Shown: positions 9,577 to 12,440 of the stretch, in pieces
Numbering within the stretch: the first letter of the stretch is position 1
How the letters are laid out: each line of letters begins with the position of its first letter
Made by a program: the position numbers and the translations under genes
Source: a virus
Virus genome (UHGV): UHGV-0267347
DNA length: 27,205 nt
Reading direction: 5' to 3' (one strand)
Notes under the pieces: generated by a model
What the model saw: the letters and a program-made list of their open reading frames with translations, nothing else
The model's database searches: none
Told to the model about the DNA's origin: nothing

Positions 9577-10181
9577 GCGTTAGTTTCTCCACAGTCACGA
9601 CACGCCACGGCGCCCGGAGCTGCACACTCGCGGGCGTCATTACTTTCTGAAATGCAAAAGATTTTGTAGACCAGTGCTGCATGCTCCTGCAGCTTCGAAA
9701 TTGAGAGATACAGCTCGTCGTTAATTGCTGTCTTCTCATGCGGTTCCACCACACCGTCTTCGATTGCCGAACGAATCTGTCTGGAATAACTGCCAATCTG
9801 TTCAATGACTTCCAGCAGGCGCTGGTTAATATCGGCGTTGTCCACATCCTCGACGTCAGGAAGAGACACAAAGACGCCATTTGCAGACTGCGCCACAGCG
9901 TCAGCAATGAAGTGAGTTCCACCAGCACGTTGCAAAATCATTGCCCATCCCAGCGGGAAAATCTGATCGCCATCGGCACGAAGGCGGTTAAATAATGCGT
10001 TTTCTGTTACATCCAGCCAGTCAGCTGCTTCAGCGTAACCACCCGGCAACGCTGCGATAGTTTTTCTGACAGCTTTCACGTACCACTCAGGCTGTTTTTC
10101 TACTTTCCAGTGATGCTTACCCACGGTTAGCCTCATCGTTCTGTGGTTTCTGTTAATCGATTTATCCATTAGATTTTTCAT
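9573..10181 (-). CDS. CII/YdaT-like regulatory protein
   Basis: Start chosen at ATG 10181 (MKNLMDKS...), just past the Cro-like stop; position directly after cro and before the replication genes is that of cII/ydaT-type regulators; no catalytic motif. Confidence 0.55.
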
Positions 10182-10362
10182 AAAGCTCAGGTTTAAATGG
10201 CAACCGTCCGCAAGTTCTATATGCAGCTTCTGCTGCACGTCCTTTTGGAATTAACTGGCCCGGACGGTTTCGCCACTGATAAACGGCTTCAGTTGTTATG
10301 CCAAAAAAAGCAGCAACTTTCTCAATACTGCCGAAGTAGCTTTCGATATCGTCAGTTGTCAT
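10162..10362 (-). CDS. cro: Cro-like HTH protein (YdaS-like)
   Basis: 66 aa, HTH with YQW...LIP pattern; divergent from the CI gene across an operator region. Confidence 0.75.
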   Translation of the reverse strand: MTTDDIESYFGSIEKVAAFFGITTEAVYQWRNRPGQLIPKGRAAEAAYRTCGRLPFKPELYEKSNG

Positions 10363-10459
10363 ACGCCCTCCAAACTAAGTTTTATTAGATGCTAATTACA
10401 AATCTATCTTTGGTCAATAAAAACTAAGATTACTTAGCAATTCAAGAAATGGTGCTCCT
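10363..10459. promoter_or_regulatory. OR-like divergent promoter/operator region
   Basis: Two 14-bp palindromes built on CTAAG half-sites: CTAAGTTTTATTAG (10375-10388) and CTAAGATTACTTAG (10424-10437), between divergent cro-like and cI starts. Confidence 0.5.
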
Positions 10460-11086
10460 ATGGAAACGGTTGGTCAGCGTATAAAAGCTCTGAGAAGAGT
10501 TACCGGAACGTCCCAGAAAGAATTGGGTAAATTTTGTGGAGTAAGCGACGTTGCTGTGGGGTACTGGGAGAAAGACATCAATACCCCTGGTGGGGAGGCA
10601 CTTTCGAAATTAGCGAAGTTCTTCAATACGTCAATAGATTACATTCTTTATGGTGCTGAGTTTGAAGGCAAACTCGTCACAAACATGCGCAGAGTTCCTG
10701 TAATATCGTGGGTTCAGGCTGGGCAGTTTACTGAGTGCAGGGCAGCAGAAGTGTTTAGTGAAGTGGACAAGTGGGTAGATACATCATTAAAGATTGGTGA
10801 TAACTCATTTGCATTAGAGGTTAAAGGTGACTCCATGACTAACCCTAATGGCCTCCCAACAATACCAGAAGGCGCAACAGTGATTGTAGATCCAGATGCA
10901 GAACCTCGTCATGGAAAAATAGTCATCGCTCGACTTGATGGAACAAACGAAGCTACAGTAAAAAAATTAGTCATCGATGGCCCTCAAAAGTTTTTAGTGC
11001 CATTAAATCCTCGGTATCCCAACATCCCTATCAATGGTAATTGCCTTATCATTGGTGTAGTCAAAGGAGTTCAATACGAACTCTAA
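10460..11086 (+). CDS. cI: CI-type repressor (XRE HTH + S24 LexA-like peptidase)
   Basis: N-terminal HTH (QKELGKFCGVSDVAVGYWEKD), C-terminal GDSM serine motif (VKGDSMTNP) and downstream Lys (VKKLVIDG), characteristic of autocleaving phage repressors. Confidence 0.9.
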   Translation: METVGQRIKALRRVTGTSQKELGKFCGVSDVAVGYWEKDINTPGGEALSKLAKFFNTSIDYILYGAEFEGKLVTNMRRVPVISWVQAGQFTECRAAEVFSEVDKWVDTSLKIGDNSFALEVKGDSMTNPNGLPTIPEGATVIVDPDAEPRHGKIVIARLDGTNEATVKKLVIDGPQKFLVPLNPRYPNIPINGNCLIIGVVKGVQYEL

Positions 11087-11098
11087 GACCTCTCTTCT

Positions 11099-11166
11099 CT
11101 AACTAAGGCACCGAACTAAGAAAAGTTTGGTGTTTTCTCTTGCCATAATAACTAAGTTAAGTTAGA
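11099..11166. promoter_or_regulatory. OL/pL-like operator region (CTAAG repeats)
   Basis: CTAAG at 11103, 11116 and 11152 plus CTAAGTTAAGTTAG, immediately downstream of the cI stop; mirrors the OR half-sites. Confidence 0.4.
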
Positions 11167-11251
11167 TTTTATATCAAAGATAACGAACAGGCAGGACGCC
11201 CACGAAGTAGCCGCCTGGGGCATATGAAGTCCAGGATGATTCGTTAGCAAC

Positions 11252-11275
11252 AAAAAAGCGCCCTACAGGACGCTT
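11252..11275 (-). terminator. intrinsic terminator (minus-strand sense)
   Basis: aagcgccc-taca-ggacgctt hairpin preceded on the plus strand by AAAAAA, giving stem + UUUUUU for a leftward transcript; would shield cI from the antisense gene at 11512-11946. Confidence 0.45.
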
Positions 11276-11333
11276 AGCTCTTTAACAATCTGGTCCCCAT
11301 CAACAAGTAACTGATAACTTGAGGAGGTGTGAA

Positions 11334-11540
11334 ATGCACAAAACAGAACCCAAAATCGTCGCGCCTGGCTACACAGATGAGGAAATTTATGAGTGGATGA
11401 CAAAGAAGCTGGCAGCTATAAACCAGCTTCGTGAAGTGCTGTCTTATCGACAGGAAACAATAGACTCCTTAAAAAAACTGGATCAGGAAATCACGGTTTT
11501 ATCACAGGATGTTACTTTAGATATTGTGCAGACAAATTAG
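11334..11540 (+). CDS. hypothetical small protein (68 aa), first ORF after the pL-like region
   Basis: ATG at 11334 preceded by GAGGAGGTG SD; coiled-coil-like sequence; overlaps the 3' end of the opposite-strand 144-aa ORF, so it is uncertain. Confidence 0.35.
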   Translation: MHKTEPKIVAPGYTDEEIYEWMTKKLAAINQLREVLSYRQETIDSLKKLDQEITVLSQDVTLDIVQTN

Positions 11541-11946
11541 GATCCCATTCATTTTCGTCAAAATCATCAAAGTGATGAATTTGTGATCTCCAGTCTCGAT
11601 AATCTAAAAATTTCTGGGCGGTTACGCTTATTTTATCAAGTGTGAGTTCATCCTGAATTGAAAGAAGAAGTTCATCAAATTTCATCTCATTAATCTGTTT
11701 TGGCATCCAGTGATGCTTCATCAGAATAAGGTGAACCAGAGCCTTTTTCCCATTCAACTGATTATAGGGAGTGCCGAATTTCTTCCGGTGCTCATGTAAG
11801 ACAAGGTCCAGAAGAGTAAGTAATGTTGCCCTTGATTCAACTTTGCTTATTTCGACTGATGACACTACCCCACTGATTTCAATGCCCCGATACTTTCCAA
11901 CATTTTCACAGTGGGATTTGTACAGCGTGTAGATATTACCGGACAT
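11512..11946 (-). CDS. hypothetical protein (144 aa), antisense to the early-left operon
   Basis: ORF track; AT-rich; intrinsic terminator on the same strand about 240 bp downstream; no motif recognised. Confidence 0.5.
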   Translation of the reverse strand: MSGNIYTLYKSHCENVGKYRGIEISGVVSSVEISKVESRATLLTLLDLVLHEHRKKFGTPYNQLNGKKALVHLILMKHHWMPKQINEMKFDELLLSIQDELTLDKISVTAQKFLDYRDWRSQIHHFDDFDENEWDPNLSAQYLK

Positions 11947-12059
11947 TTCTTTTCCTTTTGCGTTGTTGGGGATAACCAGATTAACCGAATCCTTGTTGTT
12001 GGGGAATAACCAGGTCCACCTCGCCTGATGTGGCTAAAAGCAGGCACATAACAGCTAAG

Positions 12060-12440
12060 TATTTTCAACCAGAGAGAATCCTTAGCGTTGTGGTGAATGC
12101 GGCTCAGCGCACGCGGGTTAAGGTTGAGGCTGACAGTCGACCTTCTGTGGATACCCACCCGCCTGGTGTGCAACCTTCGCCAGGCACCGGGAGGCACCCG
12201 GCACCACAACTTTATGCTGTGTGTAGTCCTGGCGGTACCAGTTTGTACCCTTGCTTCCGGCTGGTACCGTCCTTTTTACAAAACAGAGAAGAGCATCACC
12301 GGACGACGGGCTCATAACCCAATCCATCCGGGCGGCTGCCACCGCAGGTGTTCTTCTCTGTTTTGTGGAGAAACTAACCGCCCCTACGGGGGCATTTATG
12401 GAAATGTAATTGACTCAATAATCGCCGGACGGTGAGGGCT
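12060..12440. other. GC-rich, highly structured non-coding element (candidate structured RNA or regulatory DNA)
   Basis: No convincing ORF (three mutually overlapping Pro/Arg/Gly-rich frames); multiple inverted repeats: gcctgg/ccaggc (12160-12185), cggtaccag/ctggtaccg (12233-12269, 9-bp stem), aaacagagaaga/tcttctctgttt (12280-12362) enclosing further GC stems. Confidence 0.35.

What the first reader, a model, noticed from the sequence alone, without database searches (positions are those of the whole stretch)
11246..11946. Opposite-strand 144-aa gene with its own terminator at the rex-equivalent position next to cI
Seen in sequence: immediately past the cI stop and OL-like repeats there is a 144-aa minus-strand ORF (11512-11946) antisense to the early-left operon, followed about 240 bp downstream by a hairpin + U6 terminator (11252-11275) that would stop its transcript before cI. 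Established knowledge: the cI-adjacent slot of lambdoid phages carries lysogen-expressed exclusion systems (rexAB, sieB). Inference: candidate lysogeny-expressed exclusion or abortive-infection gene. The overlapping 68-aa plus-strand ORF (11334-11540, strong SD) could be a partner or an artefact.
Basis: partly seen in the sequence, partly recalled or inferred. Interest (0 to 1): 0.45.

Follow-up and report, generated by a model that had tools for sequence, protein, structure and literature searches.

The report
Lysogen-expressed prophage gene pair beside cI
The antisense 144-aa gene next to the phage repressor is real, belongs to a conserved family of unknown function and orphan fold, and is nearly always paired tail-to-tail with a small YdfC-like gene; a Salmonella homologue is transcribed in lysogens, so the pair is a good but untested candidate for a prophage exclusion or self-immunity system.

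Summary
The window is an SfV/SfIV/CPS-53-like lambdoid prophage. The 144-aa minus-strand ORF (11512-11946), its terminator (11256-11275 plus a U run) and the 68-aa plus-strand ORF (11334-11540) all exist.

The 144-aa protein is an "ECs1072 family" member (NCBIfam NF033230, PHROG 5286). It has no Pfam, PADLOC or PDB relative. Its confident all-helical model has no significant structural neighbour.

The 68-aa ORF is a genuine gene, a YdfC homologue and the first gene of the PL operon. In 13 of 15 distinct loci (down to about 25% identity) the large gene sits antisense inside a lytic operon (PL, PR or late), convergent with a YdfC-like gene and usually overlapping its 3' end.

The ST64B homologue (STMMW_20121) is transcribed from its own promoter in lysogens, about 30-fold above flanking lytic genes. 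Its partner is expressed too.

The cassette (11246-12015) is a low-GC mosaic insert. The large ORF is under purifying selection (dN/dS 0.21), and its allele differs between near-identical flanks.

Lysogenic expression is therefore supported by homology. An exclusion function is plausible but untested. "Rex-equivalent" is positionally inexact, because the pair lies beyond OL/PL.

The parts
10460..11086 (+). cI-type repressor (HTH_3 + Peptidase_S24), 208 aa. It sets the orientation of the immunity region.
   Evidence: Pfam PF00717 9e-28 and PF01381 1e-10. RefSeq annotates it as a LexA family protein.
11140..11168 (+). Putative PL promoter (TTGCCA-17-TAGATT), overlapped by an OL operator-like 18-mer at 11150-11167.
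   Evidence: Promoter scan. The operator repeat family is shared with the cI-cro intergenic region at 10372 and 10421. A canonical PL sits at the homologous place in L031.
11182..11245 (+). Conserved PL leader. It forms the left flank of the mosaic cassette.
   Evidence: 98% identical in SfV and SfIV although their immunity regions and cargo differ. Also present in L016 upstream of its YdfC-like gene.
11246..12015 (.). Mosaic cassette (moron): terminator, 68-aa gene, 144-aa gene and its upstream repeats.
   Evidence: In SfV the whole stretch is replaced by 523 bp carrying orf33 and a terminator. SfIV has the same cassette at 98.5%. GC is 40.4% against 48.5% for the window and 54.8% for the right flank.
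11246..11275 (-). Intrinsic terminator of the 144-aa transcript: stem 11275..11256 followed by a U run. The transcript is therefore antisense to the whole 68-aa gene and its SD.
   Evidence: Terminator scan. The G.U pairing is specific to the minus strand and is conserved in L031.
11334..11540 (+). 68-aa YdfC-family gene, the first gene of the PL operon (SD GAGGAGG at 11321-11327). The predicted product is a short N-terminal strand segment followed by one long helix (residues 15-67). It is acidic (pI 4.8).
   Evidence: phrog_1744 over its full length, 6e-35. 39% identity to RefSeq-annotated YdfC, pairwise E 1e-17. AF2 pLDDT 89.9 from a single sequence. pI. Substitutions against L031 are 5 synonymous to 1 nonsynonymous.
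11512..11946 (-). 144-aa ECs1072-family gene, antisense to the PL operon. The product is a soluble all-alpha protein of 7 helices. Invariant residues are H72 and W134; nearly invariant are R54, L64, G66, A69 and W80.
   Evidence: NF033230 at 157.8 bits against a cut-off of 70. phrog_5286 1.5e-90. 65 clusters at 50% identity, nearly all full-length ones about 143-157 aa. Alignment A2. AF2 pLDDT 91.5, pTM 0.85. dN/dS 0.21.
11512..11540 (.). 29-bp convergent 3' overlap of the two coding regions.
   Evidence: Overlaps of 35-206 bp are seen in 10 other distinct family members: nine (some rest on long ORF calls) and 71 bp in ST64B. The L031 overlap of 64 bp comes from a frameshifted small ORF.
11947..12033 (-). 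Upstream region of the 144-aa gene. It holds the SD AAGGA, two direct repeats CTGGTTAT(T)CCCCAACAAC (11962-11982 and 11997-12015) and the palindrome CCACATCAGGCGAGGTGG (12016-12033). The promoter is presumed to lie here.
   Evidence: Repeats. The element is related to a conserved upstream element of other family members: CCACCTCAGGCGGTGG, then TGnTATCTT, then CACACAACCAAGAAAGG. No consensus sigma-70 site was found on this strand.

Best explanation
The locus is a two-gene prophage accessory cassette.

The 144-aa ECs1072-family protein is made in the lysogen from its own promoter, on the strand opposite to the repressed PL operon. Its transcript runs antisense across the whole 68-aa gene and stops at its own terminator just before PL. 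The 68-aa YdfC-like protein is the first product of PL. Its synthesis therefore rises when the resident prophage is induced or when a phage of this type infects. At the same time, convergent transcription and sense/antisense pairing depress the 144-aa gene.

I propose that the 144-aa protein is the effector of a lysogen-protecting function, most likely exclusion or abortive infection of superinfecting phages. I propose that the YdfC-like protein is its cognate partner, an antidote or regulator that lets the resident phage escape its own effector.

Shown here:
- gene reality, family membership and the mosaic cassette;
- the conserved pairing and the antisense-in-a-lytic-operon rule;
- lysogenic transcription of a homologous pair.

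Inferred:
- transcription of this particular copy in lysogens;
- any physical or functional interaction of the two proteins;
- the exclusion activity itself.
For: 1. Both genes are real and selected.
2. Pairing: in 13 of 15 distinct loci carrying a family member (window, L006, L008, L009, L010, L014, L015-17, L018, L020-22, L023, L025, L026, L031) a YdfC-like ORF lies convergent and adjacent. In 12 of the 13 the coding regions overlap at their 3' ends as called; some long overlaps depend on ORF calls.
3. The pair travels together into three different lytic operons:
   - PL next to cI;
   - PR after cro (L025);
   - the late operon between Q and the holin or before the terminase (L006, L014, L020-23, ST64B).
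   In every case the small gene is sense and the large gene antisense to the operon (same calls).
4. Experimental transcription of the homologous ST64B pair. STMMW_20121 has its own transcription start site and is expressed in almost all of 17 conditions. Median TPM is 113, against 3.7 for the holin, 3.7 for the upstream late gene and 226 for cI. The partner has a median of 93 TPM, peaks under inducing nitric oxide shock (258), and correlates with the holin (rho 0.59, p 0.012) whereas the large gene does not (PMC7067206). Identity of the genes was checked by coordinates and by HMM (9e-45 and 2.8e-15).
5. Moron features: exact mosaic boundaries, low GC and its own directional terminator.
6. Allele replacement confined to the large ORF, between flanks that are 96-100% identical (dS 0.79 inside). 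This pattern is typical of specificity or arms-race genes.
7. Neighbourhood: a SieB gene lies beside a family member in L015, and a Tad2-like gene in L014. Other antisense cargo occupies the same slot in relatives.
Against: - No consensus promoter was found for this copy. Its upstream element deviates from the TGnTATCTT of relatives.
- In ST64B both genes are expressed in lysogens at similar levels. A strict lysogeny-versus-lytic toggle is therefore not shown.
- YdfC occurs without the large gene in Qin-like phages (L012, L013). The large gene occurs without YdfC in L007. The pairing is thus not obligatory.
- A divergent large allele (72% aa) coexists with an almost unchanged small gene. That small gene is moreover frameshifted in its last third in L031. 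This argues against tight co-adaptation.
- A co-fold of the two proteins could not be run.
Confidence: 0.4

Rival explanations
1. Lysogen-protecting neutraliser. The YdfC-like early protein is harmful to the host, like many small PL-operon proteins. The 144-aa protein, made constitutively in the lysogen, sequesters or counteracts leaky YdfC, helped by its antisense 3' UTR. The pair would then behave like a toxin-antitoxin or anti-leak device rather than an anti-phage effector. Exclusion of phages that depend on YdfC would be a by-product.
For: - YdfC is the more widespread family, and the large gene almost never occurs without it.
- The large transcript covers the whole small gene and its SD in antisense.
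- Both genes are expressed in ST64B lysogens at similar levels.
- Neighbours of ydfC in the Qin dicBF operon (DicB, DicF) are toxic (PMC5069750).
Against: - No toxicity is reported for YdfC. It is described only as a protein of unknown function, and merely lists the gene within a larger recovered region.
- Qin-like phages keep ydfC without the large gene.
- L007 has the large gene alone.
- The gene order is convergent rather than an autoregulated operon, and no known toxin or antitoxin domain is present.
Confidence: 0.2
2. Phage-intrinsic regulatory insulator. The main function is convergent transcription itself. A constitutive antisense unit planted just inside a lytic operon blocks leaky PL, PR or late transcription in the lysogen and tunes induction. 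The protein would be a regulator of the switch, as has been proposed for lambda RexA (own knowledge).
For: - The large gene is always antisense within a lytic operon, whichever operon that is.
- In ST64B there is a terminator for each convergent unit placed beyond or inside the partner gene, and a promoter-like site upstream of sb50.
- The non-coding upstream element is conserved across proteins that are only 25-35% identical.
Against: - The protein is strongly conserved, with a confident fold and dN/dS of 0.08 in its core. This is not expected if only transcription mattered.
- Many close syntenic phages lack the cassette entirely and carry unrelated cargo. It is therefore dispensable for the phage life cycle, as accessory genes are.
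- No DNA-binding domain is detectable.
Confidence: 0.22
3. The 144-aa gene acts alone as an ordinary moron of unknown host-modulating function. The YdfC-like gene is merely a frequent neighbour, because both favour promoter-proximal positions in lytic operons.
For: - The linkage is not obligatory (L007; Qin-like phages).
- The small gene is frameshifted in L031, and recurrent 80-aa variants exist.
- The large allele can change while the small gene stays the same.
Against: - A YdfC-like ORF was found in 13 of 15 distinct loci and across three unrelated operon contexts, always in the same convergent arrangement and nearly always with a 3' overlap.
- In part of the family a 10-bp palindrome encodes W-D-P on both strands, which suggests an old overlap.
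Confidence: 0.13

Closest known systems
STMMW_20121 / STMMW_20131 (sb50) of Salmonella prophage ST64B
   Same: It is a homologous pair: family HMM 9e-45 for the 144-aa protein and 2.8e-15 for the YdfC-like partner. It has the same convergent 3'-overlapping layout (71 bp), and the large gene is antisense to lytic genes. Owen et al. 2020 flagged STMMW_20121 as a candidate accessory or regulatory gene because it is transcribed from its own promoter in lysogens.
   Different: It is only about 32% identical. It sits in the late operon between Q and the holin rather than next to cI. Its partner is longer (119 aa as annotated) and has a promoter-like site of its own. No function has been established there either.
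YdfC of the Qin prophage dicBF operon (E. coli K-12)
   Same: The 68-aa protein is 39% identical over 66 residues (pairwise E 1e-17). Like YdfC, it is a promoter-proximal gene of the repressor-controlled early-left operon.
   Different: In Qin-like phages ydfC is preceded by another gene (ydfA and ydfB in K-12, per PMC5069750) and followed by dicF and dicB, and no ECs1072-family gene is present. The function of YdfC is unknown.
Lambda rexAB and P22/lambda sieB (lysogen-expressed exclusion genes near the immunity region)
   Same: All are accessory genes close to cI, expressed while the lytic operons are repressed. For P22 SieB, the phage also makes its own escape factor (Esc), which resembles the antidote logic proposed here (own knowledge).
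   Different: There is no sequence or fold similarity. RexAB are co-transcribed with cI on the same strand, upstream of OL/PL. RexB and SieB are membrane proteins, whereas this protein is soluble (GRAVY -0.47). A true SieB gene lies beside a family member in L015, so the two are distinct.
BstA of Salmonella prophage BTP1
   Same: Per, bstA was picked out in the same transcriptomic study as a prophage gene transcribed during lysogeny. From own knowledge, not checked here: it lies next to the repressor and was later shown to be an abortive-infection protein with a built-in self-immunity element.
   Different: There is no homology. From own knowledge, BstA is a single larger DNA-binding protein and its anti-BstA element is a DNA site, not a protein partner. 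No activity has been shown for the present pair.

Membership tests
ECs1072 family phage-associated protein (NCBIfam NF033230) / PHROG 5286 | Whole-protein HMM score above the curated cut-off (70 bits), with a full-length match. | tested here: met
   157.8 bits, E 1.7e-46, residues 4-144 on profile positions 2-142 of 142. phrog_5286 1.5e-90, positions 1-144 of 144.
YdfC family (68-aa partner) | Sequence homology to E. coli YdfC over the full length. No curated Pfam or NCBIfam model matched. | tested here: met
   BLASTP gives 39% identity over 66 of 68 residues, E 1e-17, against a gene that RefSeq names 'protein YdfC'. phrog_1744 6e-35 over its full length. No Pfam or NCBIfam family matched either protein.
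Moron / prophage accessory locus (Hendrix-type) | An autonomous insert between genes that are adjacent in related phages, with sharp mosaic boundaries and deviant base composition. | tested here: met
   Boundaries at 11245/11246 and 12015/12016 against SfV. Other cargo occupies the slot in SfV, SfII, PhiR29 and mEp460. GC is 40.4% against 48.5%.
Moron / prophage accessory locus (Hendrix-type) | Its own terminator and its own promoter, with expression from the repressed prophage. | tested here: inconclusive
   The terminator is present and directional. No consensus promoter was found for this copy. Transcription from an own promoter in lysogens is shown only for the ST64B homologue.
Lambda RexA/RexB exclusion system | Homology to RexA or RexB; co-transcription with cI from PRM on the same strand, between cI and OL/PL; a RexB membrane channel. 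| tested here: not met
   No Pfam or PADLOC hit. The gene is on the opposite strand and lies beyond OL/PL. The protein is soluble and all-helical, with GRAVY -0.47.
SieB superinfection exclusion protein | Match to Pfam SieB (PF14163). | tested here: not met
   No Pfam hit for the 144-aa protein. A separate SieB (PF14163) gene lies next to a family member in L015.
Type II toxin-antitoxin module | Two co-directional, co-transcribed genes, with a recognisable toxin or antitoxin domain. | tested here: not met
   The genes are convergent. No toxin or antitoxin domain was found in Pfam, NCBIfam or PADLOC. No HEPN Rx4-6H motif is seen in alignment A2.
Known anti-phage defence systems (PADLOC-DB v2) | HMM match to any component model. 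| tested here: not met
   Zero families matched either protein at E <= 1. Later catalogues could not be searched.
HD / HDOD superfamily (weak structural lead) | An HD-fold core with the H...HD...D metal-binding motif, and a significant structural match. | tested here: not met

The most novel reading that the evidence does not exclude
The ECs1072-family protein and its YdfC-like partner form a previously unrecognised two-component prophage immunity system. The effector has an orphan fold and is produced during lysogeny. A small single-helix antidote is encoded in sense within a lytic operon. The convergent, overlapping transcription units form the switch that turns the effector off and the antidote on when the resident phage itself develops. 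This would also give the first function to YdfC, a y-gene found in more than half of complete E. coli genomes.
Probability: 0.3. Interest if true: 0.75.

Novelty: new variant of a known kind. Interest (0 to 1): 0.55.

Why it matters
The large gene is in 422 of 5426 complete E. coli genomes. The family extends to Salmonella (including the widespread ST64B prophage), Serratia and Klebsiella phages. ydfC is in 3076 of 5426 E. coli genomes. Neither protein has a known function or a structural relative.

Three findings turn two "hypothetical proteins" into a sharply defined, cheaply testable candidate system:
- the two genes form a conserved convergent pair;
- the large gene is always placed antisense inside a lytic operon;
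- one homologous pair is already documented as lysogen-expressed.

If the pair excludes phages or controls induction, it adds a new kind of prophage-encoded immunity or regulatory module. It would also explain a recurrent lysogeny-specific transcript seen in Salmonella transcriptomes.

Tried and rejected
Searches that gave nothing:
- Pfam, NCBIfam and PADLOC on both proteins returned only the two "hypothetical" family names.
- PDB sequence and profile searches found nothing.
- A Pfam scan of 50 family members gave only scattered single hits.
- The afdb50 library was unavailable.
- Literature searches for ECs1072, WP_000016389, the PHROG and NCBIfam ids and STMMW_20121 returned only a Sakai microarray table (the namesake is a divergent member, so this is weak) and the Owen et al. 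paper. A search for recent prophage-defence papers showed nothing on this family.
- PADLOC and Pfam scans of alternative cargo in the same slot in relatives found no known defence gene.

Jobs that could not run or were too narrow:
- The search for related loci with the broad alignments failed, and with the narrow alignment gave only 3 loci. Contexts were therefore gathered one protein at a time.

Leads considered and rejected:
- HEPN: no Rx4-6H motif.
- The 20-nt inverted repeat flanking the cassette (11287-11306 / 11963-11982, 75% complementary) was considered as a shared operator for both genes. It is within chance expectation (my own estimate) and has no counterpart in the other loci.
- A sigma-70 promoter for the 144-aa gene was not found by scan. 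The extended -10 (TGnTATCTT) seen in relatives is degenerate in this copy.
Full report
**Context.**
The window is a lambdoid prophage of the SfV/SfIV/CPS-53 type. An almost identical copy in E. coli PCN061 lies between the replication genes and an integrase next to tRNA-Thr/proA. The gene order is:
- cro (10162-10362, minus strand);
- cI (10460-11086, plus strand; HTH_3 + Peptidase_S24);
- the region in question;
- yfdR-like, yfdT-like, xis and int genes on the plus strand.

Three copies of an operator-like 17-18-mer (AAACTAAG..TTAG) occur. Two lie between cI and cro. One lies at 11150-11167, inside a plus-strand promoter-like site TTGCCA-17-TAGATT at 11140-11168. A relative with a different immunity (L031) has a canonical TTGACA-17-ATAATG at the same place, preceded by the cI terminator. 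PL therefore fires rightward in window coordinates, and everything beyond 11170 on the plus strand is the early-left operon.

**Observation.**
- The 144-aa ORF is at 11512-11946 on the minus strand.
- The 68-aa ORF is at 11334-11540 on the plus strand, with a GAGGAGG Shine-Dalgarno sequence.
- The two overlap by 29 bp at their 3' ends.
- A minus-strand hairpin with a U run lies at 11275-11246, 237 bp past the 144-aa stop.

The hairpin has a G.U pair that exists only in the minus-strand RNA. In the E. albertii relative the substitutions again preserve pairing only on that strand. It is therefore a directional terminator for the 144-aa transcript. That transcript consequently covers the entire 68-aa gene and its ribosome-binding site in antisense.

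**What the two genes are.**
The 144-aa protein is a member of NCBIfam NF033230, "ECs1072 family phage-associated protein" (157.8 bits, cut-off 70), and of PHROG 5286. It has no Pfam, PADLOC or PDB relative, by sequence or by profile.

An exhaustive HMMER scan found 65 clusters at 50% identity. Nearly all full-length ones are single-domain proteins of about 143-157 aa. In the alignment H72 and W134 are invariant, and R54, L64, G66, A69 and W80 are nearly so.

AlphaFold gives a confident all-alpha model of seven helices (pLDDT 91.5, pTM 0.85). The model has no significant neighbour:
- Foldseek against BFVD;
- Foldseek against PDB.

The 68-aa ORF matches PHROG 1744 over its full length (6e-35). 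It is 39% identical (pairwise E 1e-17) to the gene that RefSeq annotates as ydfC. ydfC is the third gene of the DicA-repressed dicBF operon of the Qin prophage, and its function is unknown (PMC5069750). It is predicted to be a short N-terminal strand segment followed by one long helix, and it is acidic.

**The pair is a conserved module.**
I recovered genomic context for 15 distinct family members, down to about 25% identity. In 13 of them a YdfC-like ORF was detected with an HMM built from the first partners plus YdfC. New, independent hits had E-values of 3e-13 to 1e-3. Each hit lay convergent to the large gene and adjacent to it. In 12 of the 13 the coding regions overlap at their 3' ends as called, by 29 to about 200 bp; the longest overlaps depend on how the partner ORF is called.

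The exceptions are L007, which has no partner, and L019, where the contig ends 365 bp after the gene.

The pair is found in three different kinds of lytic operon:
- the PL operon next to cI (window, L008, L009, L010, L015-18, L031);
- the PR operon after cro (L025);
- the late operon, between the Q antiterminator and the holin or in front of the terminase (L006, L014, L020-23, ST64B).

In every case the small gene is sense and the large gene antisense to the surrounding operon. This rules out a coincidence of position and argues for a functional unit.

The linkage is asymmetric. ydfC occurs without the large gene in Qin-like phages and is in 3076 of 5426 complete E. coli genomes. The large gene is in 422 of 5426.

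**Expression.**
The ST64B prophage carries the module between sb50 and the holin. Its 144-aa ORF is unannotated in the phage record. By length, spacing and overlap it is exactly STMMW_20121 of S. Typhimurium D23580, and sb50 is STMMW_20131.

Owen et al. [quoted passage not shown] They proposed an accessory or regulatory role. Median TPM values from their Table S5 are:

| Gene | Median TPM |
|---|---|
| STMMW_20121 (large gene) | 113 |
| STMMW_20131 (partner) | 93 |
| Holin | 3.7 |
| Upstream late gene | 3.7 |
| cI | 226 |

The two profiles differ. In late stationary phase the values are 4.9 against 101, so the partner signal is not antisense spill-over. The partner, but not the large gene, correlates with holin expression (rho 0.59) and peaks under the inducing nitric oxide shock.

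In ST64B each unit has a terminator-like site placed inside or beyond the other gene, and sb50 has a good promoter-like site of its own.

For the copy in the window no consensus promoter was found. Its upstream region carries a variant of an element conserved in relatives: the palindrome CCACCTCAGGCGGTGG, then TGnTATCTT, then a CACACAACCAAGAAAGG leader. In the window part of it is duplicated.

**Evolution.**
Against SfV the homology breaks at exactly 11245/11246 and 12015/12016. SfV has 523 bp of unrelated cargo there, while SfIV has the same cassette. Other relatives carry yet other cargo in the slot, some of it also antisense. None of that cargo matches a known defence gene.

The cassette is GC-poor, at 40.4% against 48.5% for the window.

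Against E. albertii (L031) the flanks, the small gene, the terminator and the promoter region are 96-100% identical, but the large ORF is only 78% identical (72% aa). The divergence starts at its ATG and ends at its stop. Within the ORF dS is 0.79 and dN/dS is 0.21, falling to 0.08 in the conserved core. This is a functional protein whose alleles are exchanged as a unit. That pattern is common for specificity determinants.

**Interpretation.**
The best-supported reading is a lysogen-expressed accessory effector with a cognate small partner. They are wired so that convergent transcription from a lytic promoter raises the partner and depresses the effector. I favour a superinfection-exclusion or abortive-infection role with self-immunity (confidence about 0.4). 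The grounds are:
- the moron anatomy;
- the antisense-in-a-lytic-operon rule;
- the allele replacement;
- the neighbourhood, with a SieB gene beside a member in L015 and a Tad2-like gene in L014.

No biochemical clue supports a specific activity. Two rivals are nearly as good:
- the large protein neutralises a harmful YdfC-like early protein;
- the unit is chiefly a transcriptional insulator or regulator of the switch.

The pair lies beyond OL/PL, inside the PL operon, on the opposite strand, and the family is not restricted to the cI neighbourhood.

**Novelty.**
Both families are catalogued only as hypothetical, and the ST64B member was flagged from transcriptomics. I found no description of any of the following in the searched literature:
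- the conserved convergent pairing with YdfC;
- the antisense placement rule across three operon types;
- the orphan fold.

I therefore rate it a new variant of a known kind (a prophage moron or accessory locus), of moderate interest, and directly testable.

Noticed in passing
window 12057-12279 (+): Full-length match (model positions 1-206 of 206) to Rfam RF02076, the STnc100 prophage sRNA, at 43.1 bits. This is just under the gathering score of 47, with E 1.2e-7 in a 1.45-kb search, and it was missed in the gathering-threshold scan. It lies in the GC-rich conserved right flank, divergent from the 144-aa gene. A 2026 preprint relates STnc100 to the PasD sRNAs of Stx phages. RefSeq annotates a frameshifted hypothetical CDS here.
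   Followed up: partly
window 12380-12391, compared with SfIV L002 5210-6503: The window lacks about 1.3 kb that SfIV has between the right flank and the yfdR-like gene (the 3' part of SfIV_34 and all of SfIV_33). The ORFs at 12030-12435 are therefore probably remnants. They have no Pfam hit.
   Followed up: partly
window ~11473-11479 (A7 run in the 68-aa gene); L031: The homopolymer is A8 in the E. albertii copy. This frameshifts the last 20 codons and gives an 80-aa product. 80-aa variants recur in the protein database (P0109, P0114). The cause could be sequencing error, decay or slippage-prone variation.
   Followed up: partly
L006, L023, L026 (ST64B): 3' overlap of the two genes: A palindrome of the type TGGGATCCCA appears to be read as W-D-P on both strands. 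The large protein's conserved C-terminal (E/D)WDP and the partner's FPWDP/LWDP tail would then be encoded by the same bases. In the window the small ORF stops just before this site. The palindrome was read directly only in the window DNA; for the other loci it is inferred from the two protein sequences.
   Followed up: no
window 11287-11306 and 11963-11982: A 20-nt inverted repeat (75% complementary) brackets the two genes. Each gene is thus preceded on its own strand by AATCTGGT..CCCCA..CAAC. By my own estimate this is within chance expectation, and it is not seen in other loci.
   Followed up: partly
upstream of family members in L006, L009, L010, L016, L018 (about 80 nt before the ATG): The non-coding upstream region (palindrome CCACCTCAGGCGGTGG, TGnTATCTT, then CTTGG..CACACAACCAAG and AAAGG) is better conserved than the proteins it precedes (25-35% identity). 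It may be a promoter plus operator, or a structured 5' leader.
   Followed up: partly
L015 4327-4821; L014 2739-3497; L008 2-169: Genes beside family members include a SieB (PF14163) gene between the large gene and cI, a Tad2-like (anti-Thoeris family) gene, and a phage-borne CsrA homologue.
   Followed up: no
window 11182-11245 (+): A 64-bp PL leader is conserved across phages with different immunity regions and different downstream cargo (SfV, SfIV, L016, L031). It could be a nut- or put-like or other early-transcript element. No Rfam hit was found.
   Followed up: no
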